A DNA stretch of 64,000 nt. Origin: an uncultured Gammaproteobacteria bacterium (lineage in GTDB: Bacteria > Patescibacteriota > Microgenomatia > Levybacterales > GWA1-39-11). Positions 2,377 through 44,179 of this stretch are shown here, in pieces (within the stretch, counting starts at the first letter, position 1; the number at the start of each line of letters is the position of its first letter). Both the position numbers and the translations under genes were made by a program. The notes under the pieces were generated by a model. That model made no database searches and was not told where the DNA came from. It worked only from the letters and a program-made list of their open reading frames with translations. Where the stretch lies: NCBI GenBank assembly GCA_964452165.1, contig CAYVKP010000001.1, forward strand, positions 76,110-140,109, read 5' to 3'.

Positions 2377-2557
2377 TTATGATTCCAAAAGGAGTTTTTA
2401 TCCTCTTTTCTCCATTCATGAAAATGATGGGAGCAAAAAACGTTAATGCGCTAGCTGACAGCTTGCAAAAATATCTTGAAAAGAATTAAGAGTGCGATTA
2501 GATAGTTGCAACATTTTTGGCAAGGGTCCTAAACTGACTCTCTGCTATAATCTCCCC

Positions 2558-2959
2558 ATGAAAAAGATTTACTCTTCGGATAAAGTATATGTCAAACAAT
2601 CAGGAATTGTGAATGCCGGCCGGGGAGTCTACGCTGCGCATGATATCAAAAAAAACGAACTTATTGAAAAATGCCCTGCTATTGAAGTCCCAAAAAATGA
2701 TCTATCTAATTTAAACGAAAGTTTTCTCGTTACTTATTTTTTCTATTTTGGCAAGAATAAGGAGCGCCTGGCAGTAGCATTGGGTTTTGGGTCAATATAC
2801 AACCATGCGCACGAACCTAACGCAACATACAAAATAAACGGGTCGGAGGGGACAATCGATTTTATAGCTTTGAGGGGCATTAAAAAAGATCAGGAGATAA
2901 CATTCAACTACAAGCAGGGGAATCCAAAAAATAAAAATCCGCTATGGTTTGAGGAATAA
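2558..2959 (+). CDS. SET-domain protein (putative lysine methyltransferase)
   Basis: SET signatures GRGVYAAHDIKKNELIEKCP ... GSIYNHAHEPNATY ... FIALRGIKKDQEITFNY. ATG 2558 sits 7 nt after a TGcTATAAT extended -10 (leaderless). Confidence 0.7.
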   Translation: MKKIYSSDKVYVKQSGIVNAGRGVYAAHDIKKNELIEKCPAIEVPKNDLSNLNESFLVTYFFYFGKNKERLAVALGFGSIYNHAHEPNATYKINGSEGTIDFIALRGIKKDQEITFNYKQGNPKNKNPLWFEE

Positions 2960-5577: not shown

Positions 5578-6630
5578 CTAGTTTGCTTTTCCTATTTCAA
5601 AAATAGAAAGTAGTCCAACGATTCCATTTTCATAATCTTTTAAATCCTTGGCACGCATCTCCTTCTTAAATTTCTCGTGAGTATTTAAATTGGAGAGAGT
5701 ATAACCTTGGGTGTATGCATCAAAAACCGCCGGATGAATGTAATATTTGCGGCAAGTTGAAGGAAGATTTCTGAGATGTTTTGCAACCTGTTTTACGATA
5801 TCGCTTGTCGTCTTTTTAATTGCTGCTTTGTTATTCTGCAGTCCAAAGCGATCGAGCATTTCTGCGGCCAAAACAGTCCCGGCCCAAGTTCTAAAATCTT
5901 TAGCCGTTATGTCTTCTCCAGCTATCTGCCTTAGATACTCATTAATGTCTTGAGATGTAACCACCTGCATTTGCCCCTCTTCATCTTTGTATTCAAACAA
6001 ATCTTGGCCGGGTAGGTCCTGACATTGTTTTATAATCTTAGCAACACGGCGACTTTTAATCTCTACCTTATGGTAGACTCCGCTTTTTCCCTTAAAAGCA
6101 AACTTTACCTCTCCTCCCCAGATGTCAACGTGACGATTCTTAAGAGTAGTGAGACCATAAGACTTGTTGTCTTCTTCATATTCTTCGTTTCCAACACGAA
6201 TTAACGTATTTTCAAGAAGCCAAACAACTGTTGCCAAAACTTTTTCGCGGGTCAAACCCTTTCTTTCAAGGACATTATCAACGTGGTTGCGAATTTTCGG
6301 TAAAACTTTTGCAAACTCAAGCATATGCTCAAACTTTTTTTGCTGCGAAACTTCTGTCCAAAGAGGATGATACCTATATTGCTTGCGGCCGCGGTCGTCT
6401 ACTCCCGTTGCTTGAAGGTGACCATTTCTATACGGACAAATCCATACGTCGTGCCATGCCGGGGGAATAGCAAGAGAATTAATCTTTTCGATTATATTTT
6501 TATCGGTAATTTTTCCTCCTTGAGTATCAAAATAGTAATAAGTTTCTCCGTTTTTCTTTCTTGTGTAACCGTGGCCTGTGCCCTGCGAGTACCGGAGACT
6601 TGCTTGATCAAGTAATTCTTCTGTGGACAT
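5578..6630 (-). CDS. DNA topoisomerase IB (poxvirus/Deinococcus-type TopIB)
   Basis: ATGVDDRGRKQYRYHPLW, KDFRTWAGT and active-site-region motifs of bacterial TopIB. Start taken at the ATG at 6630 (MSTEELL). The track ORF extends to 6714. Confidence 0.8.
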   Translation of the reverse strand: MSTEELLDQASLRYSQGTGHGYTRKKNGETYYYFDTQGGKITDKNIIEKINSLAIPPAWHDVWICPYRNGHLQATGVDDRGRKQYRYHPLWTEVSQQKKFEHMLEFAKVLPKIRNHVDNVLERKGLTREKVLATVVWLLENTLIRVGNEEYEEDNKSYGLTTLKNRHVDIWGGEVKFAFKGKSGVYHKVEIKSRRVAKIIKQCQDLPGQDLFEYKDEEGQMQVVTSQDINEYLRQIAGEDITAKDFRTWAGTVLAAEMLDRFGLQNNKAAIKKTTSDIVKQVAKHLRNLPSTCRKYYIHPAVFDAYTQGYTLSNLNTHEKFKKEMRAKDLKDYENGIVGLLSIFEIGKAN

Positions 6631-6667
6631 TAAAAAATTATAGCATTTCAAGTGATATAATCTTCGG

Positions 6668-7138
6668 GTGAAATACGTTGCGCTTATTCGCGGAGTTGGC
6701 CCCGGCAATCCCAATATGCATCAGGCAAGGCTCAAAGAATTCTTTGAAAGCCTTGGATTTACGGGCGTTAAGCCGGTTATTTCGAGCGGAAATGTAGTCT
6801 TTGAGAGTGATTCGAACAATGCGAAAACACTCGAAGATAAAATCGAGGAGGAGCTGCCAAAGAAATTAGGTTTCTTGCGAACGGTTATTGTCCGCTCGGA
6901 ATCAGAACTCAAGAAGTTGATAGCAGGTGATCCATACAAAGGCATAGAAGACACGCTGCCAAATTATCTTCTCGTTACTTTTTTCAAAGATAGAAAACCG
7001 GAGTTGTGTTCGGTAATCAACATGAACTCAGGTAGAACTCCTGACTTCATGGCAAGGATTGAACGAGAACATGGGAAGGAAGTTACCTCCCGCACATGGA
7101 AAACCGTCAATCGAATTTTAAAAGCGATGGCAAAATAG
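6668..7138 (+). CDS. DUF1697 family protein
   Basis: MKYVALIRGVGPGNPNM...SSGNVVFES matches the DUF1697 N-terminal signature. GTG start 7 nt after TGATATAAT. Confidence 0.7.
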   Translation: MKYVALIRGVGPGNPNMHQARLKEFFESLGFTGVKPVISSGNVVFESDSNNAKTLEDKIEEELPKKLGFLRTVIVRSESELKKLIAGDPYKGIEDTLPNYLLVTFFKDRKPELCSVINMNSGRTPDFMARIEREHGKEVTSRTWKTVNRILKAMAK

Positions 7139-12194: not shown

Positions 12195-12518
12195 ATGGAC
12201 ACATTTCAAGCTCTTTCTGACCCCAACCGTCGCCGTATTATCGAGTTAATCGCTGCTAAGGGACAACTTACTGCCACAGATATTTCAGACAACTTCAAAG
12301 TCTCAGCACCAGCAATTTCCCAACACTTAAAAATCTTACGAGAAGCAAAATTGGTTGACATGGAAAAGCGAGCACAACAAAGAATTTATACAATTAACAC
12401 TGCTTCAATTCATGAAATAGAAGAGTGGGCAAGAAAAATGGTCGCGACATGGGACGCGCGCTTTAAAAAATTAGACAAGTTACTTGAGGATCTTAAAAAG
12501 AAGGGAGGGAAAAAATAA
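12195..12518 (+). CDS. ArsR/SmtB-family transcriptional regulator
   Basis: LSDPNRRRIIELI...ISQHLKILREAKLV winged HTH. Confidence 0.85.
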   Translation: MDTFQALSDPNRRRIIELIAAKGQLTATDISDNFKVSAPAISQHLKILREAKLVDMEKRAQQRIYTINTASIHEIEEWARKMVATWDARFKKLDKLLEDLKKKGGKK

Positions 12519-12982
12519 TGGATAACAACACTCAATTTGAAGTAGATAAAAATAATTTACAGGTTACAATCACGCGTGTTTTCAATGCTACACCTGACAA
12601 ACTTTGGGCTGCATATACAAAGCCTGAATTAATCGTTAAATGGTGGGAAGGAACAGTCGTTGATAAATTAGAGATGAACGTAGGGGGTGCATGGCGTTTT
12701 GTAAGCAAGAGCCCTGACGGTCAAGAACACGCATTCCGGGGAGAGTTCAAAGAAATTGACGAGCCAAAAAAAATTGTCAGAACTTTTGAATACGAACCAA
12801 TGGCCGGACACGTAATGACTGAAACTCTAAATCTCACGCCTGTTGGAGACAACAAAACAAAAGTCACAACAATATCAAGGTTTAAAAACGAACAAGATTT
12901 GGAAGGAATGGTTTCAATGGGAATGAAAGAAGGATCATCTGCCGGTCTTGATAGACTCGCAAAGGTTGTAGAAAGTATGTAA
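12518..12982 (+). CDS. SRPBCC/AHSA1 (activator of Hsp90 ATPase homolog-like) domain protein
   Basis: ITRVFNATPDKLWAAYTKPELIVKWW is typical of PF08327. ArsR-AHSA1 is a common pair. Confidence 0.8.
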   Translation: MDNNTQFEVDKNNLQVTITRVFNATPDKLWAAYTKPELIVKWWEGTVVDKLEMNVGGAWRFVSKSPDGQEHAFRGEFKEIDEPKKIVRTFEYEPMAGHVMTETLNLTPVGDNKTKVTTISRFKNEQDLEGMVSMGMKEGSSAGLDRLAKVVESM

Positions 12983-13112
12983 CTAAAAGTGCGGCCGCAC
13001 TCACTGGAGTTTTCTCATACACTTTCTTAACAAAGTCCTACTTAAAAGCTCTTACAATTCATGTTAAAATGGCTAAGCTAATCTCAGGGAAGATCGGGGA
13101 TTAAAGATAAAA

Positions 13113-13616
13113 ATGCAAAAGATTACCACGTGTCTATGGTTTAAAAAAAATAACGGTGAAGAAGCTGCCAATTACTACGTTGAAACCTTTAACTCAGCCC
13201 CCAACTCTTCTCACAACGGAAAAATTTTGACAAGCCAGAAAACTCCTGAAGCGGCTGCGGAAATATCCGGAAGGCCGGCAGGGTCCCTCCTAACAATTGA
13301 ATTTGAACTAGATGGAGCTCGATTTTTAGGACTAAATGGTGGACCTGTTGAAGGATTTAATTTCTCTCCCGCAACTTCCTTTATTGTAGACTGCGAAACC
13401 CAAGAAGAAATTGATCATTTCTGGAAGGCTCTTTCTGCGGTCCCTGAGGCCGAGCAGTGTGGCTGGTGTACCGATCGCTTTGGAATAACATGGCAAATAG
13501 TCCCAAAAATTTTGACCGAACTGATGAGCGATCCTGCAACGAGCGAAAAAGTAACAGCGGCTTTCATGCCAATGAAAAAACTTAATATAGAAGAACTCAA
13601 AAAAGCTGCCGAATAA
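13113..13616 (+). CDS. VOC/PhnB-like 3-demethylubiquinone-9 3-methyltransferase-domain protein
   Basis: MQKITTCLWF...EEAANYYVETF...CGWCTDRFGITWQIVP, strong PF06983-like pattern. Confidence 0.75.
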   Translation: MQKITTCLWFKKNNGEEAANYYVETFNSAPNSSHNGKILTSQKTPEAAAEISGRPAGSLLTIEFELDGARFLGLNGGPVEGFNFSPATSFIVDCETQEEIDHFWKALSAVPEAEQCGWCTDRFGITWQIVPKILTELMSDPATSEKVTAAFMPMKKLNIEELKKAAE

Positions 13617-13618
13617 TA

Positions 13619-14218
13619 ATGCGAAAGATAATTGTTCTATCATTTATCTCTCTTGATGGTGTGATGCAGGCGCCTGGTGGCCCTGAGGAAGACACTTCAG
13701 GCGGTTTTAAATACGGCGGCTGGACAGCGCCTTTCTTTGATGACTTTGCAGGTAAAATAATGGGCGAGCAAATGAGTGGAGACTACGATTTGCTCTTAGG
13801 AAGAAAGACTTATGATATATTTGCAGGTTATTGGCCTACGCATGCAGGTGAATTCTGGCCCCAAGTAAATAAAATTACAAAATATGTCGTCTCAAAAACT
13901 CTCGAGAAAGGAACTTGGACAAATTCAGTCGTTTTAAAAGATTCATCGGATATCAAAAAACTAAAAGATGAGGACGGAACCCCTCTTCAGGTTCACGGAA
14001 GCGGAAATTTAATTCAGACACTTTTGAAAGAAGATCTAGTGGACGAACTCTGGCTTAAAACATTCCCCGTGACTTTAGGTCCCGGGAAAAAGCTTTTTGC
14101 GGAGGGTACGATTCCCGGTGCATTTACCCTTACTGACAGTAAAGTTTCACCAAGCGGAGTAATATTTGCAAATTACAAGCGTGCGGGAGAAGTCAAAACC
14201 GGCACGGTGGGTGAATAG
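13619..14218 (+). CDS. dihydrofolate-reductase-like RibD_C family protein
   Basis: MRKIIVLSFISLDGVMQAPGGPEED...GRKTYDIFAGYWP, RibD C-terminal (PF01872) pattern. Confidence 0.8.
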   Translation: MRKIIVLSFISLDGVMQAPGGPEEDTSGGFKYGGWTAPFFDDFAGKIMGEQMSGDYDLLLGRKTYDIFAGYWPTHAGEFWPQVNKITKYVVSKTLEKGTWTNSVVLKDSSDIKKLKDEDGTPLQVHGSGNLIQTLLKEDLVDELWLKTFPVTLGPGKKLFAEGTIPGAFTLTDSKVSPSGVIFANYKRAGEVKTGTVGE

Positions 14219-14266
14219 ACAAATCCGCTTGAAAAATATCCCGTATAGAATTAGAATCTACACACC

Positions 14267-14542
14267 ATGTGTCGGAATATTAAACATCTCTTCAACTTTG
14301 ATCCTCCTGCAAGAGAAGACGAAATTAAAGCTGCCGCTGAACAATTCGTAAGAAAAATCTCAGGATTCACCAAGCCTTCGAAGGCAAACGAAAAGGTATT
14401 TAATCATGCAGTCGAACATATAACAGAACATGCGGCGCAACTTCTATCCTCACTTGTCACAGACGCTGATCCTCGAAACCGTGAGGAAGAAGCAAAACGG
14501 GCACACGAAAGAGCAATCAAAAGATTTGGAACACAAAACTAA
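14267..14542 (+). CDS. DUF2277-like small protein
   Basis: MCRNIKHLFNFDPPAREDEIKAAAEQFVRKISGF resembles DUF2277. Confidence 0.55.
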   Translation: MCRNIKHLFNFDPPAREDEIKAAAEQFVRKISGFTKPSKANEKVFNHAVEHITEHAAQLLSSLVTDADPRNREEEAKRAHERAIKRFGTQN

Positions 14543-15115
14543 ATGAGAAAGATAATTGTTTTCAATATGATCTCGGCCGATGGCTATTTTGCAGGAATTG
14601 ATGGCGACATCTCATGGCACATGGTAGACGACGAATTTAATAAATTCGCGATTGAACATACACAAGAGTTTGGAACTATAATTTTTGGCCACACGACTTA
14701 CAAAATCTTTGAAGAATACTGGCCAAAAGCTTTAAAAGACCCAAAAACAGGTGCGGACGATCGTAAAATTGCGCAGATAATAGAGGACGTGCAGAAAATA
14801 GTATTTTCAAAAAAACGTAAAGAGGTCACCTGGAATAATTCGAAGGTATTCAATAAAATTACACCTGAAAATGTAATTGCCTGGAAAGAAAAAAAAGGAA
14901 GCGACGGAAAACCTGCTGCCATTTTTGGAAGCGGGCAGATAGTTGCGCAATTTACGGATCTGGGTTTAATCGACGAATACCGCCTGATGATAAATCCCGT
15001 TATTTTGGGCGCCGGGAAATCTATGTTTGCCGGAGTCAAAAAGCAGAATCTGAAGCTAATAAAAACGCGAGAATTTAAAAATGGAAATATACTCGCCTAT
15101 TACCAACCACAATGA
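14543..15115 (+). CDS. dihydrofolate-reductase-like RibD_C family protein (paralog of 13619..14218)
   Basis: MRKIIVFNMISADGYFAG...GHTTYKIFEEYWP. Confidence 0.8.
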   Translation: MRKIIVFNMISADGYFAGIDGDISWHMVDDEFNKFAIEHTQEFGTIIFGHTTYKIFEEYWPKALKDPKTGADDRKIAQIIEDVQKIVFSKKRKEVTWNNSKVFNKITPENVIAWKEKKGSDGKPAAIFGSGQIVAQFTDLGLIDEYRLMINPVILGAGKSMFAGVKKQNLKLIKTREFKNGNILAYYQPQ

Positions 15116-15474
15116 AAGCTGTAAATATAAAAAATCTTAAGAAACAAAAAATAGGCGCACCGCTTTTTACGGACGAGATTATCATGCAGACGGCAGTTTC
15201 GGAGGAGGAGGGTGCTGACATGGTTGTTGCCTACGTAACTTTTCCTAAAAATGTAAGGAATCGCTTTCATAAACATACACATGACCAGGTTTTAATAGTA
15301 ACTGAAGGCGAGGGATTCTATGAGACAAAAGAAAAACGTTTCATTCTGAAAAAGGGTGATATTGCGTGGAGTCCGGCAGGCGAAGTACATTCACATGGCG
15401 CGCTTGAAAAGGGCAAATTTACACACATTACTGTTACCCCCAAGAAAACAAAACTCACCCAGATTGAGAAGTAA
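15112..15474 (+). CDS. cupin-domain protein
   Basis: FHKHTHDQVLIVTEGEG...GEVHSHGA cupin motifs. Confidence 0.75.
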   Translation: MKAVNIKNLKKQKIGAPLFTDEIIMQTAVSEEEGADMVVAYVTFPKNVRNRFHKHTHDQVLIVTEGEGFYETKEKRFILKKGDIAWSPAGEVHSHGALEKGKFTHITVTPKKTKLTQIEK

Positions 15475-15563
15475 AAATTAGTCGATTTTGATCTACTTAG
15501 TCTAATTTACTTTCGTATTTTTTTCGTATATTATTATTAGTCCCAGACTGACCATGCAGGCCT

Positions 15564-15773
15564 ATGAACCTCTCAGATACCATTATAAAAATTATTAAAT
15601 CCTTCAAGCCAATTGAAGCAAAAACTCAGATTAAAAATCCTGTCATAAACTACAAAAGTCCCACAAATTATGTGTTCCAAAAATTTGAGATGGATAAATC
15701 CCAATTTGAAACTCTTGTTTCTGAGATCTCGAGCAAAATCATTGAAACGATTACCAAAGCGCTGGATAGTTGA
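15564..15773 (+). CDS. small hypothetical protein
   Basis: 69-aa ORF in an otherwise unassigned gap; no homology recognised. Confidence 0.3.
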   Translation: MNLSDTIIKIIKSFKPIEAKTQIKNPVINYKSPTNYVFQKFEMDKSQFETLVSEISSKIIETITKALDS

Positions 15774-15779
15774 TATAAT

Positions 15780-16514
15780 TTGACTATGTACGGAATTGCA
15801 AAGTTTTTAGATCCAAATCATCCAGAAGCACATACGGTCAATACTACGGCTAAGCTCAATTGGCTGCGTGCATCAGTCTTAGGTGCAAATGATGGAGTCG
15901 TATCAATCGCAGGACTCGTCTTGGGAGTCGCTGGGGCAACAAGCCATATTGGAGTAATTGTTGCTGCCGGAGTTGCGGGAATAATTGCAGGAGCCATATC
16001 AATGGCGGCGGGTGAATATGTCTCCGTCTCCTCATCTCGTGATACAGAACACGCACTTCTCAAAAAAGAGGAATATGAACTCAAGAACTATCCCGAGGCA
16101 GAACTTGAAGAGCTGATATCTCTCTATGAGAGAAAGGGTCTTTCAAAAAAAACCGCGACTCAGGTTGCAAATGAACTAACAAAAAAGGATGCATTTGCAG
16201 CGCATGTTGATATTGAACTTGGAATTGACCCTGAGAATCTGACTAACCCGTGGCATGCCGCTGCGGCTTCGGCTATTTCTTATCTGGTTGGGGCAATAAT
16301 TCCGCTTGTTGCGATTATTTTACCCAGCGCGTCTACTCGCGTGCCTATTGCGTTCGGTTCGGTTGTAGTGGCGCTTATTGTTATTGGAACGTTCTCTGCG
16401 GTAGTTGGCGGAGCAAGTATTTCAAGAGCGGTAATAAGAGTGGTTGCCGGGGGAATTCTTGCGATGGGCGTTACCTACTCAATTGGGCGACTCTTTGGAA
16501 TATCAGGACTTTAA
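15780..16514 (+). CDS. VIT1/CCC1-family iron/manganese transporter
   Basis: LRASVLGANDGVVSIAGLVLGVAGA and a C-terminal TM block. Confidence 0.8.
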   Translation: MTMYGIAKFLDPNHPEAHTVNTTAKLNWLRASVLGANDGVVSIAGLVLGVAGATSHIGVIVAAGVAGIIAGAISMAAGEYVSVSSSRDTEHALLKKEEYELKNYPEAELEELISLYERKGLSKKTATQVANELTKKDAFAAHVDIELGIDPENLTNPWHAAAASAISYLVGAIIPLVAIILPSASTRVPIAFGSVVVALIVIGTFSAVVGGASISRAVIRVVAGGILAMGVTYSIGRLFGISGL

Positions 16515-16533
16515 GTAGTGCTATAATACCTCT

Positions 16534-17139
16534 ATGAAAATCGCAGTGATTGGCGCAGGAAATGTAGGTGGAACTCTGGCTAAAAGATTTGCAGATGCCG
16601 GGCATACTGTTGTCCTTGGTGTTAGAAATCAGGACGATCCAAAAGTAAAAATACTTCTTTCAGATAAACTCTCTGCAAAATCAATTTCCGAGGCCGCACG
16701 CGAGGCTGAAGTTATTGTAACCGCAGCATATCCGACGGCGACAAAAGAAATTGCCGAACAACTCGGAGATGTCAAAAACAAGGTAATAATTGACGTCATG
16801 AATACTTTCCGTGGCGCGCCCGTTCCACACAAAACAACCGCCGAGGCACTTCTTGCCTGGACAAATTCAAAAGATGTTGTCCGATGTTTCAACACAACCG
16901 GTTGGCAAAATATGGAAAATCCTACATATAACGGTGAAGGTATTGATATGTTTGTTGCAGGAGACAGCAAGCGCGGAAAAGCACTCGCGACAAAGCTTGC
17001 CAAAGAAATTGGCTTCGGGCAAGTGTACGATCTTGGAGGAAATGATGCATTTGAACTTATGGAAAATATTGTTATAACTTGGGTTGGACTTTCTCAAAAA
17101 CTCGGGCGAGACATTGCTCTTAAGATCCTCAAACGCTGA
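16534..17139 (+). CDS. NAD(P)-binding oxidoreductase, F420-dependent NADP reductase/P5CR-like (PF03807)
   Basis: MKIAVIGAGNVGGTLA Rossmann N-terminus. Leaderless: TGCTATAAT then 6 nt to ATG. Confidence 0.7.
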   Translation: MKIAVIGAGNVGGTLAKRFADAGHTVVLGVRNQDDPKVKILLSDKLSAKSISEAAREAEVIVTAAYPTATKEIAEQLGDVKNKVIIDVMNTFRGAPVPHKTTAEALLAWTNSKDVVRCFNTTGWQNMENPTYNGEGIDMFVAGDSKRGKALATKLAKEIGFGQVYDLGGNDAFELMENIVITWVGLSQKLGRDIALKILKR

Positions 17140-17182: not shown

Positions 17183-17773
17183 TTAAACTTCTTCTGATGG
17201 GGTTTCTTGTGTTGGAGTTTCTGCTTGCTCTTCGGGTTGCACTTCAGCTTGGACCTTTGAAGGCGCGGCTTTTCTTGTTCTCTTGGGTTTTTCCGCTAAA
17301 ACGGTTGGTTCCTCCGGCGAAAGCTCCAGCTCTTCAACTTTTCTTGACGGGCGAGGTGAGGCTGCTGCTTGTGCCTTCTCGGGTTTTGTTGCGGAAGATT
17401 CAAGTAAGCCGATGATTCTGTCGAGTTTACTGTTTAAGGCAGCGAGTTGTTCGCCGAATTGGGCTTGACCATTACCCCTTGGAGCATCTGACCTTCTGTC
17501 TCCTCTATCTGATCCTCTTCTGTCATCTCTTCCTTCACTTCTCGCAGGACGGTCGCTACCACCTCTTTGTTCTCGGAAACAATCGTTGCAGAAAACCGGC
17601 TTACCACTTGTGGGCTGAAAGGGAACTTCACATTCTTTTCCACAGTTACTACAAACTGCACTATACATTTGGCGAGGTCCGGAGTCTCTTCTGTCAAACC
17701 CTCGTCCGCCTCCACGCGAAGATCTTTGTCCACGATTGTCTCTGTTAAAATCAGCCATGGGTACATTATACAC
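17183..17773 (-). CDS. zinc-ribbon protein with RG/RD-rich low-complexity region and acidic tail
   Basis: CSNCGKECEVPFQPTSGKPVFCNDCF (CxxC-x17-CxxC), arginine/glycine-rich segment, Glu-rich C-terminus. Confidence 0.5.
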   Translation of the reverse strand: MYNVPMADFNRDNRGQRSSRGGGRGFDRRDSGPRQMYSAVCSNCGKECEVPFQPTSGKPVFCNDCFREQRGGSDRPARSEGRDDRRGSDRGDRRSDAPRGNGQAQFGEQLAALNSKLDRIIGLLESSATKPEKAQAAASPRPSRKVEELELSPEEPTVLAEKPKRTRKAAPSKVQAEVQPEEQAETPTQETPSEEV

Positions 17774-17801: not shown

Positions 17802-18779
17802 TCAGGAGGGTGAAAAGCTTTGAACTATCTTCTTAGCTTCTTCCTTCTTTTCTTCCGTGATATGGACTAGGACTCCGCCAACATCCGGCAAACCGTAAAA
17901 GACGGTTGAGGAGAGAGGCGCAAGGAGTATTGCGGGGAGAGTAAGTAGGTCCTCCTCGCCTTCAACTTCAATTGCCTGCCTATGTCCTGACAAGGCACCC
18001 TGGACTGCCTGATTTAAACTTTTAACCGCGGCGGAGCTTATCGTCCCGGGGTCATTTCTTACTTTAATATCCGGCTTTGGGAGCTTTTCTAAAATCTGTG
18101 GGGCTGCTGCTTGGCGTTTTGTCTTTAAATCAAAAACCGAAACGCTTTGGGCTATACCATTTTCAATAAGTCTAACCGTTGCCACATCTCCTATTGAAAC
18201 ATTGAATTTTGAATCGACGCCAAATTTATCGCTTGTTATAATTTCTCCCAACGGCTTTCTCAATTCTTCCCGCAAAGAGTCGGGCATATGTAAGTCTTTC
18301 TCGAACAGCCTTAAATAAACCGTTCCCTCACGATCTATTTCCCCATTCCTGATTCTTGTTGATGAAATCGGTCCTCCATCTTCTGCCTTAAGGATGGATA
18401 CCTGTATTGTCTCAAGCTCTGAAAGACCATTTTTTCCACGCGCTTGGTTTACTTCGCCTGCTCCCCCCAGGGTATTCTCGCTTACTATAATTGCTTCAAT
18501 GTCAGGATCAGTATAAGCGGGGCAGCCTGTTTTATCATGGACATGAAAATGTGCTCGCGCAGACCAATCTTTAGATCTTAAGAAATTCTCGACCCCCTGA
18601 GTCCTCGCATCTTGATCCTGAAGTGTATTTTTGCCTCGCTCGCGACAAAATTCATCTGAATTTACTCCTATCAAAACCTCTTCTGAATTTGAAAAAGCCT
18701 CACTAATCAACTTCTCATGACCTTTATGCAAAAAGTCAAATGCGCCACCTAAAATTGCACGTTTGTATTTAAAACTCAT
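17802..18779 (-). CDS. fusion of an archaeal-type phosphopantetheine adenylyltransferase-like cytidylyltransferase with a DUF359 (GTP-dependent dephospho-CoA-kinase-family) domain
   Basis: N-terminus AILGGAFDFLHKGHEKLI (HxGH) ... ISSTRIRNGEID (ISSTxIR). C-terminus GDVATV ... VEGEEDLLTLPAILLAPLSSTVFYGLP is DUF359-like. Confidence 0.55.
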   Translation of the reverse strand: MSFKYKRAILGGAFDFLHKGHEKLISEAFSNSEEVLIGVNSDEFCRERGKNTLQDQDARTQGVENFLRSKDWSARAHFHVHDKTGCPAYTDPDIEAIIVSENTLGGAGEVNQARGKNGLSELETIQVSILKAEDGGPISSTRIRNGEIDREGTVYLRLFEKDLHMPDSLREELRKPLGEIITSDKFGVDSKFNVSIGDVATVRLIENGIAQSVSVFDLKTKRQAAAPQILEKLPKPDIKVRNDPGTISSAAVKSLNQAVQGALSGHRQAIEVEGEEDLLTLPAILLAPLSSTVFYGLPDVGGVLVHITEEKKEEAKKIVQSFSPS

Positions 18780-30227: not shown

Positions 30228-30251
30228 GTAGCTTAATTATACCTAAAAAGT

Positions 30252-30407
30252 TTACTCACAGCACGGATCTTTGTAGCCACAATTCTTGCAAACTGCATCT
30301 CGACCTCCACTCATCGCTCCAATTATTTCTCCGCAACATGGACAATTCTGAAGTGGCATTCCAAATATACTTCTAACATCAATTTGCTCGTCAAGAGAAG
30401 TATTCAT
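30252..30407 (-). CDS. small zinc-ribbon protein (51 aa), not in the ORF track
   Basis: MNTSLDEQIDVRSIFGMPLQNCPCCGEIIGAMSGGRDAVCKNCGYKDPCCE; CPCC...CKNC; sits in the gap upstream of dnaA. Confidence 0.3.
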   Translation of the reverse strand: MNTSLDEQIDVRSIFGMPLQNCPCCGEIIGAMSGGRDAVCKNCGYKDPCCE

Positions 30408-30448
30408 CTGTCTTCAGGTTAGCATATTTTCTGATCCAGTTGCACCCC

Positions 30449-30478
30449 TTGACAAAAAGTTATCCACATTCGTATACT
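30449..30478 (+). promoter_or_regulatory. dnaA promoter (TTGACA-18-TATACT) with a consensus DnaA box TTATCCACA (30460-30468) in the spacer
   Basis: Direct read; a second weaker box TTATCCTGC lies at about 30491. Confidence 0.55.
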
Positions 30479-30517
30479 GTGACCCTCGCGTTATCCTGCC
30501 AAGAACGCCCCACACGT

Positions 30518-31861
30518 ATGGAAGATCTTTGGAAACAAGTATTAGCAGAGATTCAAGTAGAGGTCTCAAAGCCTATCTTTCTGACATTCTTTAAGCCAAC
30601 AACTCTTGTATCCGTAGCAAATTCCATAGCAACAATTGATGCTCCAACCCACATAACAGCTGACTACATAGAAAGGAGATACTATTCACTGATTAAAAAA
30701 TCTCTTGATAAAAAAACCGGAGAAAACTTAAGCCTTGTCTTTACTTCGGAGGGGAATGCCTCTAGAAAATCTGTGAAGAAAGAGGAGGGTCCTCTTTTTG
30801 TATCGGAAAATCGCAAGCCACAACTCGCAAGAAGGCCTGCCAGAATAAGATCCGATTATACTTTCGAATCCTTGGCAGTGTCTGAGAGCAATCAGCTTGC
30901 CTATACCGCTGCTCTAACTGTTGCTTCAGATCTTGGAAGCAAATACAACCCGCTCTTTCTCTACGGTAGTGTTGGTGTAGGCAAAACTCATCTCATGAAC
31001 GCTGTAGCAAACAAAGCCTGCGACCAAAACGAGCACTGCAAAATTGTTTATCTAACAACTGAAGAGTTCACCAATGAAGTAGTTGAGGCAATAATGGAAA
31101 AGACAACCGGACAACTGCGTAAAAAATTTAGGAACGTAGATCTGCTACTTCTTGATGACATTCAGTTTTTAGCAGGAAAAGAGAAGGTCCAAGAAGAACT
31201 CTTTCACACATTTAACACTCTCGTTGATCGTGGTGGTCAAATAGTTTTTTCTTCAGATAGACCACCTTCTGAAATTAGAAAAATTGAGGCAAGGCTTGCA
31301 TCCCGATTTGAAGGAGGGTTATCAGTAGACATAGAGCCTCCGGATTTTGAGCTAAGAACGGCAATTCTTCTTATTAAAAGCAGGAAATACGGGCTAAGCC
31401 TTAGCCTTGATGCTGCAAAAGCCGCTGCCGAGAAGATTGAAGATACCCGCGCGCTTGAGGGATTTTTATTAAGAGTATCATCTATCATAACGGATAAGAC
31501 AAAAGAAATTTTAGTAGAAGACATAGCTTCAATTCTTGAAAAAAACAAGCCTACGTCAACCATCCTGAGGCCCGATTCAATAATTTCTACTATATGCTCG
31601 TTTTACAACCTAAAGCCAACTCAGCTTAAGGGGGCCAAGAGAGATTCTTATCTCGTTGGACCGAGACACGTATGCATGTTTATCTTGAAGGAAGAGGCTG
31701 GCCTAACGTATGTTGAAATAGGGAATTTATTGGGTGGCCGTGATCATACAACAGTTATGCACGCTGTGGAAAAGATTAGGGAGATGAGCGCAAATTCTGA
31801 TAAAATTCGTGAGGAAATAATGTTTATAAAGAAGAAATTAAAAGAAGATAGTCTAGGATAA
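30518..31861 (+). CDS. dnaA: chromosomal replication initiator DnaA
   Basis: N-terminus MEDLWKQVLAEIQ, AAA+ GSVGVGKTHLMNAV, and C-terminal DnaA-box-binding HTH (DHTTVMHAVEKI). The track ORF starts at 30440, but ATG 30518 fits the DnaA N-terminus. Confidence 0.9.
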   Translation: MEDLWKQVLAEIQVEVSKPIFLTFFKPTTLVSVANSIATIDAPTHITADYIERRYYSLIKKSLDKKTGENLSLVFTSEGNASRKSVKKEEGPLFVSENRKPQLARRPARIRSDYTFESLAVSESNQLAYTAALTVASDLGSKYNPLFLYGSVGVGKTHLMNAVANKACDQNEHCKIVYLTTEEFTNEVVEAIMEKTTGQLRKKFRNVDLLLLDDIQFLAGKEKVQEELFHTFNTLVDRGGQIVFSSDRPPSEIRKIEARLASRFEGGLSVDIEPPDFELRTAILLIKSRKYGLSLSLDAAKAAAEKIEDTRALEGFLLRVSSIITDKTKEILVEDIASILEKNKPTSTILRPDSIISTICSFYNLKPTQLKGAKRDSYLVGPRHVCMFILKEEAGLTYVEIGNLLGGRDHTTVMHAVEKIREMSANSDKIREEIMFIKKKLKEDSLG

Positions 31862-31993
31862 AAAGATGAAAATACAATATCAACAAACAATACACATTTT
31901 TATCAACAGGTTTTCCACATTTTTGAGAGCACCGGTTTTTGCTTTAATCCACATATCCACCTATACTACTACTATTACTAAGATAAATAATAT
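31862..31993. other. candidate oriC/DUE region between dnaA and dnaN
   Basis: AT-rich 132-bp spacer with DnaA-box-like 9-mers (TTTTCCACA, TTAATCCACA, TATCCACCT) and an AT-rich run (tactactactattactaagataaataatat). Confidence 0.5.
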
Positions 31994-33097
31994 ATGAAAG
32001 TAGAATTTTTAATAGAAAACATTGAGGAGTTTTTGCCAACCATTGCAAAAGTTCTTCCTGTTCATTCCCAAATTCCAGTACTTTCAAACTTACTTATAGA
32101 AGCAAACGAAAAAGGATTATTTCTTTCTGCAACAAATCTGGAGATAGGAATAAGAGTAAAGATTCCAGCAAAAATAGAAGAAGGTGGAGCAACTACGGTC
32201 CCGGGTAAGCAATTCATTGAGGCCTTGTTAAGTCTTCCCAAGGATAAAGTTATTTTAAGTCAAGAAAAGGATAATTTAGTTCTTAAATCAAGAGGAAGCA
32301 GTATAAGTTTTCAGACTATCTCAAGGGATGAGTTTCCAACACTACTTGAAAATATTGGAGAAAAGACTCATGTGTTTGCAGAAGGAGAATTGAGTAGGGT
32401 TTTCTCTAAGGTTATTTTTGCTGTTTCCCTGGATGAGTCAAGGCCTGAGCTTACGGGCATATTGATAGCACAGAAGAAAGAGAGAATAGACTTTGTTGCA
32501 ACGGATGGGTTTAGGTTGTCTTTGAAAAAACTTGTAGGTAAAAAGATTTTTACAGAAGAGAGAAGCCTTATAATTCCGGCAAGAATAATAGCAGAAGTGA
32601 TGGGTTTTAAAACAGGGGGTAATGTTGCTATGTATCTTTATGGGAAAACGAATCAAGTGGTATTTGAAACAGAAAATGCAGTTTTGGTGGGGCGCTTGAT
32701 AAGCGGAGACTTTCCAAATTACGAGAGAGTTGTTCCATCAAAAAATAAAACTAAAATTACGCTGGACCGCGAGGAATTCGTTCAAAAACTTAGGCTTGCC
32801 TCGGTTTTTGCAAGAGATGCTGCAAATATTGTAAAAGTTAAAATAGAAAAAGAAGAGATGGGTATATTCTCCAAAGCCTCCGGGGTAGGAGAGGGGGAGG
32901 TTACTCTTGAGGTTGAAAAAGAAGGAGAAGACAACGAGATATCTTTTAACGTGAAGTTTTTAACGGATTTGCTAAAAAATCTTTCTAGTAAAACCGTTCA
33001 CGTAGAACTTTCCTCACCTGTTGAGCCGGCTGTATTTAAGATAGATGATGACCCGGACTTTCTCCATATAATAATGCCTGTAAGGATCCAGGATTAA
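31994..33097 (+). CDS. dnaN: DNA polymerase III beta sliding clamp DnaN
   Basis: Three-domain clamp pattern; position immediately after dnaA. Confidence 0.9.
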   Translation: MKVEFLIENIEEFLPTIAKVLPVHSQIPVLSNLLIEANEKGLFLSATNLEIGIRVKIPAKIEEGGATTVPGKQFIEALLSLPKDKVILSQEKDNLVLKSRGSSISFQTISRDEFPTLLENIGEKTHVFAEGELSRVFSKVIFAVSLDESRPELTGILIAQKKERIDFVATDGFRLSLKKLVGKKIFTEERSLIIPARIIAEVMGFKTGGNVAMYLYGKTNQVVFETENAVLVGRLISGDFPNYERVVPSKNKTKITLDREEFVQKLRLASVFARDAANIVKVKIEKEEMGIFSKASGVGEGEVTLEVEKEGEDNEISFNVKFLTDLLKNLSSKTVHVELSSPVEPAVFKIDDDPDFLHIIMPVRIQD

Positions 33098-33563: not shown

Positions 33564-34260
33564 ATCCCATAACAGAATACGTTGAAGGACTTGTTAGCAG
33601 GCCTTTAATAGTCCAGGAATCTACAGGATATGAAAGCACTTTCCCCCCGCTTGCAGGTGAGATATTTGCGTCATACGTTTCAAGTGTTCCGTCTCCATGA
33701 GTATTCACGTTTATTGATTTTATTATAGCCGCATGGTCAAATGACCCAATAGTTGTTGATCCGGGGACTGCCTGAAAGAAAATTGCATATCCGGGCTTTG
33801 CTTGGCTAAGAGCAGAGGAGTGGCTACCTGAATAATAGTCCAGGAATTTATATCCTGCATTACCCCGGAAATAGTTCATAAGGTTGACTGCTCCTCCATG
33901 GTTTTGGCGACTGGTCCCCGAGAAACCGGCTAAATTATAGGAATCAATTACAAGATATGTGCACCAATATTTATTGGCAGAACTTGTCCCGGGACTTTGT
34001 GCTGTGGTGTACGAGCCATTGCTGATCTGACTTACCATCTTGTCATATGACCCGTCGTATCCTATCTCAAGCACAGCGCTAATTTTTTCAGTCCAAGAAA
34101 TAACTCCGGAAGAATTCTTGGAGGGTTGGCTTTGAGGATTTCCAATTCGAGTCTCTATGGTGTTGCTGTTTGTTTGAAGTTGCTGTGCCTGGGCCTGTTT
34201 AGCCGATAAAAAAACCAGCCCCAATACGATTAATATAGCTATTCTCTTCATTGTTGGCAA
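33547..34260 (-). CDS. secreted CHAP-domain (Cys/His amidohydrolase) protein, putative peptidoglycan hydrolase
   Basis: Signal peptide; NKYWCTYLVIDSYN (catalytic Cys) and FDHAAII (His) in CHAP-like spacing. Confidence 0.55.
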   Translation of the reverse strand: MPTMKRIAILIVLGLVFLSAKQAQAQQLQTNSNTIETRIGNPQSQPSKNSSGVISWTEKISAVLEIGYDGSYDKMVSQISNGSYTTAQSPGTSSANKYWCTYLVIDSYNLAGFSGTSRQNHGGAVNLMNYFRGNAGYKFLDYYSGSHSSALSQAKPGYAIFFQAVPGSTTIGSFDHAAIIKSINVNTHGDGTLETYDANISPASGGKVLSYPVDSWTIKGLLTSPSTYSVMGFGTTQ

Positions 34261-34709
34261 AAGCTTAAAGGATAAGATTTCCCTGAAAAATCCGGATTTG
34301 CGTAATATGGCGTTGTGATTTCAACGTTTGCTTGGCATGCCGCAGCCTGGCTCATGCCGGTTTTTTCAAGAAATATTTTCTCGGCCTCTTGTCGCAAAGA
34401 CTCAAAGGGAGAACCCGTAATACTTATCATAAAATTATTAAATTTTTCAAAATACATAATTTGATACTTGTTGGGCTCATCAATAATGTACACGTCTCTT
34501 TGTTTGTCGATTTTGGCAGCACCCTTGTAGAAGTTTTTAATAGGCGTACCGGAAAGACTTAGCGTATCGCTTTGTGGAATTGTGGGGGTTGCGTTCACGT
34601 TGTTGGGCTGGTTTGTTTTTGGTTGCTTGATGCTTGACAAGAAAGCAAACAGGATTACTATTCCAAAGAGCGTGACAATAATTGTTGCAACGAATACAAG
34701 CTTTTTCAT
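34248..34709 (-). CDS. hypothetical exported protein
   Basis: Signal/TM N-terminus; no domain recognised. Confidence 0.45.
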   Translation of the reverse strand: MKKLVFVATIIVTLFGIVILFAFLSSIKQPKTNQPNNVNATPTIPQSDTLSLSGTPIKNFYKGAAKIDKQRDVYIIDEPNKYQIMYFEKFNNFMISITGSPFESLRQEAEKIFLEKTGMSQAAACQANVEITTPYYANPDFSGKSYPLSFCQQ

Positions 34710-34713
34710 TTCA

Positions 34714-36918: not shown

Positions 36919-36931
36919 TGATTTTTACGCC

Positions 36932-39244: not shown

Positions 39245-39245
39245 A

Positions 39246-39914
39246 TTACAAGACTACGTTTTTTATATCGTCAGCGTTCCAATCAAGCGTTACAAACTCT
39301 TGATTTAACATTTCATAGAATAATTTAATAAGCTCATCGGTCCCAAGGGGTCTGTGAGTTAGTCCCATTCTTTCAACCTGGGTAAGTATATTATTTCTCT
39401 TTGAGATTAGAGCGGACTTTATCCTGTCATTGAGCGGTAGTTTCTTTCCCGGAGTAGCAGGGGCTCCCGGCTGCTGTGTAGGCCCAATATTTGTAGGCCC
39501 AAGCTCAAGCTGAGAAAATGGAATAACGATATAAACTTTCTTATCAAGAAGCCCCTCCCCCTTTATTAGATCCGCAATAAAATCTCTATAAAGAGTTAGT
39601 TGTTCGGATATCTTTGGGTTTTTCACTTTGGAAATCTTGTCTTCGAGCAGCTTGATGTAGTTGCCCATGTCAATTCGTCTTGAAACTATAAGTATCTGAA
39701 TGTAGAAAGAAAGAGAGTTAAGTAGGGACATGTATCCATATATTCTGGCTGTCTGTTCATCGCTTGAAAGCAGAAAGAAATTAACCGATGAGATTTCCGC
39801 AACCATGCAAGTGTTGCCTCCCTTGAAAAAAATCATGTCGTCTGAGATATCAACAATTTCCGTAAAATCCTGAGTTGTTGAATGAATTTTTGATTTTGCC
39901 ATATTATTCACCAA
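39246..39914 (-). CDS. hypothetical T4SS-associated protein immediately upstream of VirB4
   Basis: Tightly coupled to VirB4 (2-nt gap); no domain recognised. Confidence 0.45.
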   Translation of the reverse strand: MVNNMAKSKIHSTTQDFTEIVDISDDMIFFKGGNTCMVAEISSVNFFLLSSDEQTARIYGYMSLLNSLSFYIQILIVSRRIDMGNYIKLLEDKISKVKNPKISEQLTLYRDFIADLIKGEGLLDKKVYIVIPFSQLELGPTNIGPTQQPGAPATPGKKLPLNDRIKSALISKRNNILTQVERMGLTHRPLGTDELIKLFYEMLNQEFVTLDWNADDIKNVVL

Positions 39915-39938
39915 GGATATTTCTATCCTTGGTACTCC

Positions 39939-41222: not shown

Positions 41223-41315
41223 ATATAAAAGCGTATAACGTGAAAAATCTCATTGCAAGGGTCTCAAAGTACGTCAAAGTACGAGCGAGTTATGCGTAGT
41301 GTGTGAAAAGGGTAT

Positions 41316-43433: not shown

Positions 43434-43792
43434 TATTGATTTGTTTGTGTCTTTATCTCTTCAATTTTTTCCTGAACATCGGCTAGCTCTTGTTGATCAG
43501 TTTGTTTTGCTTCTTCTTGCTCAAGAGAGAGCAGGACAGGCTTGAAGACCGGATGATGGAGGACAAGCTCCTCAGCCCATACCTTCAGTTCTACATGGTC
43601 GTTTGCTCCTTCTATGTATTCAACTACAAAACGACTCGCTTGTTCGGATTCATCAACGGATAGATTTCCTTCTTTGAGTCCGTTAATCATGAGATCCGCA
43701 AGCTCATTAAGAAGCTCCTTTTTCTTCAATGCAAAACTTTGGGCGTTTGCGTCCATACCAAAAGAATAATGGAAAACGTGAGCAATTGTCAA
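43433..43792 (-). CDS. small acidic hypothetical protein
   Basis: 119-aa ORF translationally coupled to the gene downstream of it on this strand (1-nt overlap). Confidence 0.45.
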   Translation of the reverse strand: MTIAHVFHYSFGMDANAQSFALKKKELLNELADLMINGLKEGNLSVDESEQASRFVVEYIEGANDHVELKVWAEELVLHHPVFKPVLLSLEQEEAKQTDQQELADVQEKIEEIKTQTNQ

Positions 43793-43812
43793 GGAAAAAC
43801 AGAGTGGCCAGT

Positions 43813-44121: not shown

Positions 44122-44179
44122 ATAACATTATTCTAAAAGCAAAATAGAGCAAAAGCAAGAGAAGAAGGAATTCGGAATG

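What the first reader, a model, noticed from the sequence alone, without database searches (positions are those of the whole stretch)
17802..18779. Single polypeptide combining archaeal-type PPAT-like and DUF359-like (GTP-dependent dephospho-CoA kinase family) halves
The N-terminal half carries cytidylyltransferase motifs (GGAFDFLHKGHEKLI; ISSTRIRNGEID) as in archaeal/eukaryotic phosphopantetheine adenylyltransferase. The C-terminal half carries the GDVATV ... VEGEEDLLTLPAILLAP pattern of the DUF359 family, whose archaeal members are the GTP-dependent dephospho-CoA kinase. Together they would catalyse the last two steps of CoA synthesis by an archaeal-style route in a bacterium. That would be an unusual fusion and phyletic pattern, useful for salvaging phosphopantetheine from a host.
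Basis: partly seen in the sequence, partly recalled or inferred. Interest (0 to 1): 0.6.

Follow-up and report, generated by a model that had tools for sequence, protein, structure and literature searches.

The report
Fused archaeal-type PPAT–DPCK CoA enzyme
A tiny-genome (CPR, Levybacteria-like) bacterium encodes one protein joining the archaeal versions of the last two coenzyme A enzymes, a fusion already known from archaea and common in CPR database entries, so it is a solid annotation rather than a new kind of system.

Summary
The ORF at 17802-18779 (-), 325 aa, is real and intact. Residues 4-154 are an archaeal/eukaryotic-type phosphopantetheine adenylyltransferase (PPAT). NCBIfam NF001985 scores 137.8 bits against a cutoff of 104, and the HxGH and ISSTRIR motifs are present. 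Residues 166-322 are a DUF359/PF04019 domain (107 bits). This is the family of the Thermococcus kodakarensis GTP-dependent dephospho-CoA kinase (DPCK), and all three mutagenised Asp residues are conserved. An AlphaFold model (pLDDT 95) matches 8jvc and 3do8.

The host is a Levybacteria-like CPR bacterium. The predicted function, 4'-phosphopantetheine to CoA, is well supported by homology.

The fusion is not unusual. The same PPAT-DUF359 fusion in uncultured archaea was the clue that led to the archaeal DPCK in 2019. More than 200 fused homologues, the named ones Patescibacteria, are already in databases. I found no paper describing this module in CPR bacteria, and the 2019 paper retrieved only archaeal members.

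Absence of canonical coaD/coaE and phosphopantetheine salvage could not be tested beyond this window. Some relatives add an archaeal-type NMN adenylyltransferase as a third domain.

Verdict: new member of a known kind, moderate-to-low interest.

The parts
17802..18779 (-). Complete ORF of 325 aa (stop codon at 17802-17804): the PPAT-DPCK fusion protein
   Evidence: ORF; domains; full-length homologues, and the identical protein P0001 on a 650,109-bp NCBI contig
18318..18770 (-). Residues 4-154: archaeal/eukaryotic-type phosphopantetheine adenylyltransferase domain (HIGH-type nucleotidyltransferase fold)
   Evidence: NF001985 137.8 bits > cutoff 104; 3do8 E=1.8e-18; Foldseek 3do8 TM(target) 0.80-0.84, followed by bacterial CoaD structures
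18717..18728 (-). HKGH (residues 18-21): the (H/T)xGH nucleotide-binding motif
   Evidence: H18, G20 and H21 are invariant in 91 fused homologues; positions checked
18348..18368 (-). ISSTRIR (residues 138-144): the second nucleotidyltransferase motif (ISSTxxR)
   Evidence: I143 invariant; S140, R142 and R144 at least 90% conserved; aligned to ISSTRIK of 3do8
18285..18317 (-). Residues 155-165: short junction between the two domains, with no extra linker domain
   Evidence: Domain limits. Standalone archaeal PPATs end a few residues after GEIDREG, and standalone DPCKs begin a few residues before LRxxLKxPxG
17814..18284 (-). Residues 166-322: DUF359/PF04019 domain, the family of the GTP-dependent dephospho-CoA kinase
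   Evidence: PF04019 107.4 bits; 8jvc E=3.2e-24; Foldseek 8jvc/8jvg TM(target) 0.79-0.83
18186..18188 (-). Asp198 (GDV), equivalent to Asp48 of T. kodakarensis TK1697
   Evidence: Alignment; invariant; D48A is strongly defective in PMC6650551
18129..18131 (-). Asp217 (FDLKTKR), equivalent to Asp67 of TK1697
   Evidence: Alignment; invariant; D67A is strongly defective in PMC6650551
17949..17951 (-). Asp277 (GEEDL), equivalent to Asp125 of TK1697
   Evidence: Alignment; invariant; D125A is partly defective in PMC6650551
18786..18815 (-). Promoter-like site TTCGCA-18 nt-TATAAT ending 7 nt before the ATG. It suggests the gene has its own near-leaderless transcript. This is a consensus match only.
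   Evidence: 10 of 12 matches; sequence; no Shine-Dalgarno-like purine run is visible between it and the ATG

Best explanation
The gene encodes a bifunctional enzyme that finishes coenzyme A synthesis. The N-terminal domain (archaeal/eukaryotic-type PPAT) transfers AMP from ATP to 4'-phosphopantetheine to give dephospho-CoA. The C-terminal DUF359 domain then phosphorylates the 3'-hydroxyl of the ribose to give CoA. By analogy with the T. kodakarensis enzyme the phosphate donor is probably GTP.

Shown here: the domain identities, conserved motifs and folds. Inferred: the two activities, the phosphate donor, and any hand-over of dephospho-CoA between the two domains of the one polypeptide.

The gene sits in a Levybacteria-like CPR bacterium. 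It appears to have its own promoter and has no CoA-related neighbours. A plausible but untested physiological role is to convert an imported late precursor (4'-phosphopantetheine) into CoA in an organism with little biosynthetic capacity.
For: - Domain matches.
- Active-site conservation: HxGH and ISSTRIR in the PPAT half, and the three Asp residues mutagenised in TK1697 (D48, D67, D125 = D198, D217, D277 here). These Asp residues, H18, G20, H21 and I143 are invariant in 91 fused homologues; S140, R142 and R144 are conserved in at least 90%.
- Structure: the AlphaFold2 model has pLDDT 95.2 and pTM 0.91. Its best PDB matches are the T. kodakarensis DPCK (8jvc/8jvg, TM 0.79-0.83) and A. fulgidus PPAT (3do8, TM 0.80-0.84). 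Bacterial PPATs come next, ahead of other cytidylyltransferases.
- Precedent: the same domain order (PPAT then DPCK) occurs in Poseidoniales/Thalassarchaeaceae archaea (loci L004, L007-L011). Experimental proof of DPCK activity for the family is in PMC6650551.
- Family: widely conserved, with 202 two-domain and 24 three-domain proteins among 282 sequences classified.
- Context: no CoaE, CoaBC or CoaX in the window. Gene GC of 0.438 against 0.414 for the window gives no sign of recent transfer.
Against: - No biochemical data exist for any bacterial member.
- The NCBIfam DPCK equivalog models score only about 102 bits against cutoffs of 300. Those models are lineage-specific (for example Thermococcales), so this mainly shows divergence: about 34% identity to TK1697.
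- GTP preference has been shown for one archaeal enzyme only.
- The rest of the genome (about 590 kb) could not be read, so a canonical CoaD/CoaE or the upstream pathway may exist elsewhere.
- Gene neighbours are unrelated to CoA.
Confidence: 0.85

Rival explanations
1. The chemistry is the same, but the enzyme is the end of a complete de novo or pantothenate-based pathway, or is redundant with canonical bacterial CoaD/CoaE encoded elsewhere in the genome. It would then not be a salvage device for host phosphopantetheine.
For: Only about 10% of the genome was inspected. The window holds many small metabolic enzymes, so this organism is not extremely reduced. Some CPR bacteria (Nealsonbacteria L019, L020) have a standalone archaeal-type PPAT with no DUF359 gene within the locus, so mixed solutions exist.
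Against: No CoaE, CoaBC, CoaX or PanK family was found among about 70 ORFs of the window. CPR bacteria are generally described as lacking cofactor biosynthesis (abstracts listed).
Confidence: 0.3
2. One or both halves have diverged to a different substrate. For example, the N-half could adenylylate or cytidylylate another phosphorylated compound (NMN, FMN, glycerol phosphate), and the DUF359 half could phosphorylate a different nucleotide cofactor. The protein would then not be a CoA synthase.
For: The HIGH-nucleotidyltransferase fold is used for many substrates. There are weak secondary hits to FAD synthetase, NMNAT and glycerol-3-phosphate cytidylyltransferase models. Identity to characterised enzymes is only about 30-35%.
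Against: The PPAT subfamily model passes its curated cutoff by 34 bits, while all other nucleotidyltransferase models are far below theirs. The nearest structures after the archaeal PPAT are bacterial PPATs. Fusion of the two consecutive CoA steps recurs in archaea and CPR. Where an NMNAT is needed, relatives add a separate, clearly NMNAT-like third domain instead.
Confidence: 0.07
3. The kinase half uses ATP (or any NTP) rather than GTP, so the 'GTP-dependent' label does not carry over to the bacterial proteins.
For: Donor specificity has been measured for one archaeal enzyme only (PMC6650551). The structure paper that defines the GTP-contacting residues was not in the searchable library, so those residues could not be checked.
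Against: All family-wide motifs (GDV, DxKTKR, PGTI, GEEDL, YGQP-like) are shared with TK1697.
Confidence: 0.3

Closest known systems
PPAT-arCOG04076 (DUF359) fusion proteins of uncultured marine group II/III euryarchaea (e.g. AIF21550.1; Shimosaka, Makarova, Koonin, Atomi 2019, PMC6650551)
   Same: They have the same two domains in the same order and a similar length (about 330-345 aa). They share the conserved GEIDREG junction followed by LxxPFG, and the same catalytic motifs (loci L004, L007-L011).
   Different: The host domain differs: Bacteria (CPR) rather than Archaea. Sequence identity is only 28-32% over the full length. In NJ trees of either domain the archaeal fusions form their own clade (98-100% bootstrap) that is not nested with the CPR fusions. 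Deep nodes have 0-3% support, so common or independent origin of the fusion is unresolved.
Thermococcus kodakarensis GTP-dependent dephospho-CoA kinase TK1697 (PDB 8jvc/8jvf/8jvg)
   Same: The fold matches (TM 0.79-0.83) at about 34% identity. Asp48, Asp67 and Asp125 are conserved, and both belong to Pfam family PF04019.
   Different: TK1697 is a standalone protein of 177 aa, whereas here the domain is the C-terminal half of a fusion. The NCBIfam equivalog cutoffs are not reached. The phosphate donor is untested.
Archaeal/eukaryotic-type PPAT (Archaeoglobus fulgidus 3do8; P. abyssi and T. kodakarensis TK2128 enzymes)
   Same: NF001985 membership, the HxGH and ISSTxxR motifs, the C-terminal RIRNGEIDREG signature and the fold (TM 0.80-0.84) are all shared.
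   Different: Those enzymes are standalone proteins of about 150 aa in most archaea.
Eukaryotic CoA synthase (COASY) and bacterial CoaD + CoaE
   Same: COASY is also a fusion of PPAT and DPCK activities and catalyses the same two reactions.
   Different: The DPCK of COASY and CoaE is a P-loop kinase (PF01121) unrelated to DUF359, and bacterial CoaD is a different PPAT subfamily. Neither PF01121 nor TIGR01510 is matched above threshold here.
NF002250 / PRK01170 'bifunctional pantetheine-phosphate adenylyltransferase/NTP phosphatase' of some archaea
   Same: It has an archaeal-type PPAT at the N-terminus of a protein of about 320 aa.
   Different: Only the PPAT half aligns (model positions 2-145 of 322; 108 bits against a cutoff of 489). 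The C-terminal partner is a different domain.

Membership tests
DUF359 / PF04019 / arCOG04076 (GTP-dependent dephospho-CoA kinase family) | Match to the Pfam model above its gathering score | tested here: met
   107.4 bits against a cutoff of 25, covering model positions 2-125 of 126
DUF359 / PF04019 / arCOG04076 (GTP-dependent dephospho-CoA kinase family) | The three conserved acidic residues shown by mutagenesis to matter (Asp48, Asp67, Asp125 of TK1697) | tested here: met
   D198, D217 and D277 align to them and are invariant in 91 homologues. The mutagenesis is in PMC6650551
DUF359 / PF04019 / arCOG04076 (GTP-dependent dephospho-CoA kinase family) | Fold of the solved enzyme (derived Rossmann-like, related to thiamine pyrophosphokinase) | tested here: met
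   Foldseek: 8jvc E=4e-15, TM(target) 0.80; 8jvg_B TM 0.83, rmsd 2.9. The model has pLDDT 95.2
DUF359 / PF04019 / arCOG04076 (GTP-dependent dephospho-CoA kinase family) | NCBIfam equivalog thresholds (NF041125, NF002246-NF002249) | tested here: not met
   55-102 bits against cutoffs of 270-339. These are narrow lineage models, which explains why NCBI names the homologues only 'pantetheine-phosphate adenylyltransferase'
DUF359 / PF04019 / arCOG04076 (GTP-dependent dephospho-CoA kinase family) | Dephospho-CoA kinase activity with GTP as donor | not testable with these tools
   Needs an enzyme assay. The residues that read the guanine base could not be checked because the structure paper was not found
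Archaeal/eukaryotic-type PPAT (NF001985 subfamily) | Score above the curated subfamily cutoff | tested here: met
   137.8 bits against a cutoff of 104, residues 4-154, model positions 3-152 of 157
Archaeal/eukaryotic-type PPAT (NF001985 subfamily) | (H/T)xGH and ISSTxxR nucleotidyltransferase motifs | tested here: met
   HKGH at 18-21 and ISSTRIR at 138-144; invariant or nearly invariant in the family
Archaeal/eukaryotic-type PPAT (NF001985 subfamily) | Fold closest to PPAT structures rather than to other cytidylyltransferases | tested here: met
   3do8 first (TM 0.80-0.84), then more than 30 bacterial CoaD entries, ahead of most glycerol-3-phosphate cytidylyltransferase and NadR entries
Archaeal/eukaryotic-type PPAT (NF001985 subfamily) | PPAT activity | not testable with these tools
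   Needs an assay or complementation
Archaeal PPAT-DPCK fusion lineage (group II/III euryarchaea) | Same domain order and junction | tested here: met
Archaeal PPAT-DPCK fusion lineage (group II/III euryarchaea) | Descent from the same fusion event | tested here: inconclusive
   In NJ trees of both domains the archaeal fusions are a separate clade (98-100%), but the backbone has 0-3% bootstrap support
Bacterial CoaE / eukaryotic COASY-type DPCK (P-loop, PF01121) | P-loop kinase domain | tested here: not met
   No PF01121 hit and no Walker A motif in the protein

The most novel reading that the evidence does not exclude
A large part of the CPR/Patescibacteria, including this Levybacteria-like organism, has no bacterial CoaD/CoaE at all. 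These bacteria would complete CoA with an archaeal-type, possibly GTP-dependent, fused PPAT-DPCK module. In some lineages the module is extended by an archaeal-type NMN adenylyltransferase into a single 'cofactor-finishing' protein. PF04019 is treated as an archaea-only family and is used as an archaeal single-copy marker in CheckM. On this reading it is a regular component of a major bacterial radiation, acquired by inter-domain transfer and used to live on late cofactor precursors obtained from hosts.
Probability: 0.4. Interest if true: 0.55.

Novelty: new member of a known kind. Interest (0 to 1): 0.35.

Why it matters
- Annotation: NCBI names the homologues only 'pantetheine-phosphate adenylyltransferase', because its DPCK models are lineage-specific. 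The last step of CoA synthesis therefore looks missing in these CPR genomes when it is probably present.
- Biology: the 2019 discovery paper described the DUF359 kinase family as retrieved only from archaea. Here it is widespread in Patescibacteria in fused form. This bears on how ultra-small bacteria obtain CoA and on archaea-bacteria gene exchange.
- Practice: PF04019 is used as an archaeal marker gene for genome-quality estimates (PMC8421398, PMC10134863), so its presence in bacteria is worth knowing.
- None of this is a new mechanism. It extends a characterised enzyme pair to a new host group.

Tried and rejected
1. Origin of the fusion. I built NJ trees with 100 bootstraps for the DPCK domain (110 sequences) and the PPAT domain (55 sequences). 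The archaeal group II fusions form a tight separate clade, but every deep node has 0-3% support. I draw no conclusion on one versus several fusion events or on the direction of transfer.

2. Taxonomy of standalone DUF359 representatives. Cluster look-up gave almost no organism names. Many sit on contigs of 1-2 kb and may be fragments of fused genes.

3. Whole-genome check for coaD/coaE. The 650-kb NCBI contig could not be reached. Look-ups returned only a 2.5-kb Logan contig, or nothing.

There was no CoaE hit, and CoaD hit only the archaeal-type PPAT halves weakly. This is weak negative evidence.

5. Conserved gene neighbourhood. Nothing is CoA-related. Synteny (cupredoxin upstream; VIT1, RibD_C and glyoxalase genes nearby) is shared only with the closest relative.

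6. Nealsonbacteria loci with a standalone archaeal-type PPAT. No DUF359 or CoaE lies next to it.

7. Foldseek against afdb50, intended to get organism names for the architecture. The library was unavailable.

8. Eight literature searches for DPCK, CoA synthesis, PF04019 or coaE together with CPR/Patescibacteria. No paper describes this module in CPR. The library excludes most subscription journals, so this is not proof of absence.

9. Recent horizontal transfer by composition. Gene GC is 0.438 against 0.414 for the window, so there is no signal.

Full report
**1. The observation**

The window has one ORF at 17802-18779 on the minus strand, with an ATG start and 325 codons. The domain matches are:
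- Pfam PF01467 (CTP_transf_like) at residues 9-145, 45.6 bits against a cutoff of 21.
- Pfam PF04019 (DUF359) at residues 201-322, 107.4 bits against a cutoff of 25, E=4.9e-31.
- NCBIfam NF001985 'pantetheine-phosphate adenylyltransferase' at residues 4-154, 137.8 bits against a curated cutoff of 104.
- NCBIfam GTP-dependent dephospho-CoA kinase models at residues 164-320, about 102 bits. Their lineage-specific cutoffs are about 300.
- PDB sequences: the T. kodakarensis GTP-dependent dephospho-CoA kinase 8jvc (E=3.2e-24, residues 166-322) and the A. fulgidus PPAT 3do8 (E=1.8e-18, residues 8-154).

**2. Integrity of the active sites and the fold**

I aligned the protein with 90 fused homologues. 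Invariant residues include:
- H18, G20 and H21 (the HxGH motif).
- I143, with R142 and R144 conserved in at least 90% of sequences (ISSTRIR).
- G197 and D198, D217, R222, G245, G274, E275, D277, Y295 and G296.

D198, D217 and D277 align with Asp48, Asp67 and Asp125 of TK1697. Alanine substitution of those three residues impaired or abolished complementation of the CoA-auxotrophic knockout (PMC6650551).

An AlphaFold2 model built on this alignment has mean pLDDT 95.2 and pTM 0.91. Foldseek against the PDB gave these matches:
- The T. kodakarensis kinase (8jvc, 8jvg), with target TM-scores of 0.79-0.83.
- The A. fulgidus PPAT (3do8), TM 0.80-0.84.
- A long series of bacterial CoaD structures, ahead of most other cytidylyltransferases.

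Both halves therefore look like working enzymes of the assigned families.

**3. The host**

The window encodes a sigma-70 factor, DnaA and DnaN, RuvABC, NrdR and a bacterial tmRNA. Its DnaA is 63-72% identical to proteins named Candidatus Levybacteria or Patescibacteria group. The identical fusion protein is recorded on a 650,109-bp NCBI contig. The host is therefore a Levybacteria-like member of the CPR/Patescibacteria, and the 'archaeal-type enzymes in a bacterium' part of the finding holds. The gene's GC content (0.438) lies within the range of its neighbours. A 52%-identical orthologue sits in a syntenic position in a related genome whose DnaA is 73% identical. The gene is therefore resident in this lineage, not a recent arrival.

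**4. How common the fusion is**

- The homologue search returned 253 proteins at E<=1e-5, and all 120 listed carry both Pfam domains. Names given by sources include Levybacteria, Roizmanbacteria and 'Patescibacteria group'. JGI calls some 'phosphopantetheine adenylyltransferase/uncharacterized protein (UPF0218 family)'.
- I searched the DUF359 half alone against 1.84 billion cluster representatives. It found 2188 family members at E<=0.001 and 1204 at E<=1e-10. Most of the best 150 are fused proteins of 320-345 aa.
- I classified 282 sequences with two domain HMMs:

| Architecture | Count |
|---|---|
| PPAT-DPCK | 202, plus 3 more whose DPCK half was split into two HMM matches |
| Extra N-terminal domain + PPAT + DPCK | 24 |
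| DPCK only (many on very short contigs) | 42 |
| PPAT only | 11 |

- The genome scan also found the same architecture in Poseidoniales/Thalassarchaeaceae archaea (sequences).

**5. What is already known**

[quoted passage not shown] They also state that this fusion prompted them to test TK1697, which proved to be a GTP-dependent dephospho-CoA kinase required for CoA prototrophy. Makarova et al. (PMC6393860) had already noted that domain fusions link DUF359 to CoA synthesis. The fusion is therefore the textbook clue for this enzyme family, not an oddity.

Two things are less known:
- The 2019 paper reports that iterative searches retrieved only archaeal members.
- PF04019 is used as an archaeal marker gene in CheckM-based quality estimates (PMC8421398 and PMC10134863).

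Eight full-text searches found no paper that connects this kinase, or CoA synthesis in general, with CPR bacteria. The library is limited to open-access papers.

**6. Mechanism and role**

The best-supported reading is a bifunctional CoA synthase of archaeal type. The N-domain adenylylates 4'-phosphopantetheine with ATP. The C-domain phosphorylates dephospho-CoA, probably with GTP. Domain identity, motifs and fold are shown here. The activities, the phosphate donor and any channelling are inferred.

A promoter-like TTCGCA-18-TATAAT site ends 7 nt before the ATG, and there is no Shine-Dalgarno-like sequence. This suggests a separate, near-leaderless transcript, although it is only a consensus match.

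The neighbours are unrelated to CoA:
- A cupredoxin and a PNPOx-like protein lie upstream.
- A treble-clef zinc-finger protein lies downstream.
- VIT1 and RibD_C genes and an ABC-2 exporter lie nearby.

None of about 70 ORFs in the window is CoaE, CoaBC, CoaX or a second CoaD.

It is reasonable for a CPR bacterium and fits the theme of cofactor salvage elsewhere in the window and in relatives. It could not be tested, because about 590 kb of the genome was out of reach.

**7. Origin**

NJ trees of either domain place the archaeal group II fusions in their own clade (98-100% bootstrap), separate from the CPR fusions. Standalone archaeal proteins are scattered among the CPR sequences. The backbone has 0-3% support. 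Whether the fusion arose once or several times, and in which direction it moved, stays open.

**8. Relatives with a third domain**

Proteins of about 500 aa in the family carry an additional N-terminal domain. It matches archaeal-type NMN adenylyltransferase: NF002243 at 121-123 bits against a cutoff of 127, and TIGR01527 at 102-111 bits. One of them lies next to an NAD synthase gene and near thiamine-related genes. This NMNAT-PPAT-DPCK arrangement would finish both NAD and CoA in one polypeptide. It is not in this window.

**9. Verdict**

The protein is a new bacterial member of a known, experimentally characterised enzyme pair, in a fusion format already described for archaea and abundant in CPR database entries. 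The under-reported bacterial distribution and the annotation gap give it some value. It does not reveal a new mechanism. Interest is 0.35.

Noticed in passing
Relatives, not in the window: P0116, P0015, P0080, P0109 and others (about 490-530 aa); locus L026 10001-11506: Three-domain proteins: an archaeal-type NMN adenylyltransferase (GRFQPFHxGH; NF002243 at 121-123 bits, TIGR01527) followed by PPAT and the DUF359 kinase. There are 24 among 282 family sequences. In L026 the gene lies next to an NAD synthase gene and near thiamine pyrophosphokinase and thiamine-transport genes. One polypeptide could finish both NAD and CoA.
   Followed up: partly
window 55350-62025 (+): NrdR (55350-55799) and a class II-like ribonucleotide reductase with a TSCPD domain (55802-58336) come first. 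An AdoCbl-II riboswitch (58393-58469) follows. After it come DUF4430 (58544-59173), a 576-aa DUF4430/prenyltransferase-like protein, DUF6580 and a PduO-type cobalamin adenosyltransferase (61459-62025). This looks like a B12 uptake/salvage module placed beside its B12-dependent user.
   Followed up: no
window 34248-44602 (-): A run of minus-strand genes includes a PrgI-family protein (39939-41222), a T4SS pilin (44180-44602), three large ORFs of 705-770 aa and several ORFs without Pfam hits. This is probably the Patescibacteria type IV secretion/conjugation-like system.
   Followed up: no
window 30228-33097: dnaA (30440-31861) and dnaN (31994-33097) are preceded by a 212-bp intergenic gap. This is probably the chromosomal replication origin region. 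The NCBI DnaA product has 447 aa, so the true start is downstream of the TTG listed for the 473-aa ORF.
   Followed up: no
window 17183-17773 (-): Directly downstream of the fusion gene lies a 196-aa protein with a treble-clef zinc finger (PF23477) embedded in an Arg/Gly/Asp-rich region, followed by a Pro/Glu/Ala-rich tail. An extended -10-like TGTATAAT sits just upstream. Its function is unknown.
   Followed up: no
window 2492-2959 (+) and 5578-6714 (-): A SET-domain protein (155 aa) and a bacterial type IB topoisomerase. Both are eukaryote-like families that are uncommon in bacteria.
   Followed up: no
window 44684-54346: Four large ORFs have no Pfam match at E<=1e-4: 479 aa (44684-46123), 562 aa (46439-48127), 1046 aa (49574-52714) and 543 aa (52715-54346).
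   Followed up: no
Loci L002, L003, L005 (genome contigs): MAGs titled 'uncultured Gammaproteobacteria bacterium' (binchicken and SRP co-assemblies) carry the fusion. L002 and L005 fall inside the main clade of non-archaeal fusions in the DPCK tree, and L003 groups with the Levybacteria protein P0074. The taxon label in the record titles is probably wrong.
   Followed up: partly
Loci L019 2465-2899 and L020 about 200-650: Candidatus Nealsonbacteria encode a standalone archaeal-type PPAT (144-148 aa, ending in RIRNGEIDREG) with no DUF359 gene in the locus. Not all CPR bacteria use the fused form.
   Followed up: partly
Literature, concerning PF04019: PF04019 is one of the CheckM archaeal single-copy marker genes (PMC8421398, PMC10134863). 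NCBIfam DPCK models have lineage-specific cutoffs, so the kinase half of the CPR proteins goes unnamed in NCBI annotation.
   Followed up: partly
window 12195-17139 versus locus L022: A cluster of small accessory genes (AHSA1, 3-dmu-9_3-mt, two RibD_C, cupin, VIT1, glyoxalase) is shared in rearranged order with the closest relative's contig. That contig comes from the same sequencing run (SRR9179560). Two related Levybacteria-like populations seem to coexist in that sample.
   Followed up: no
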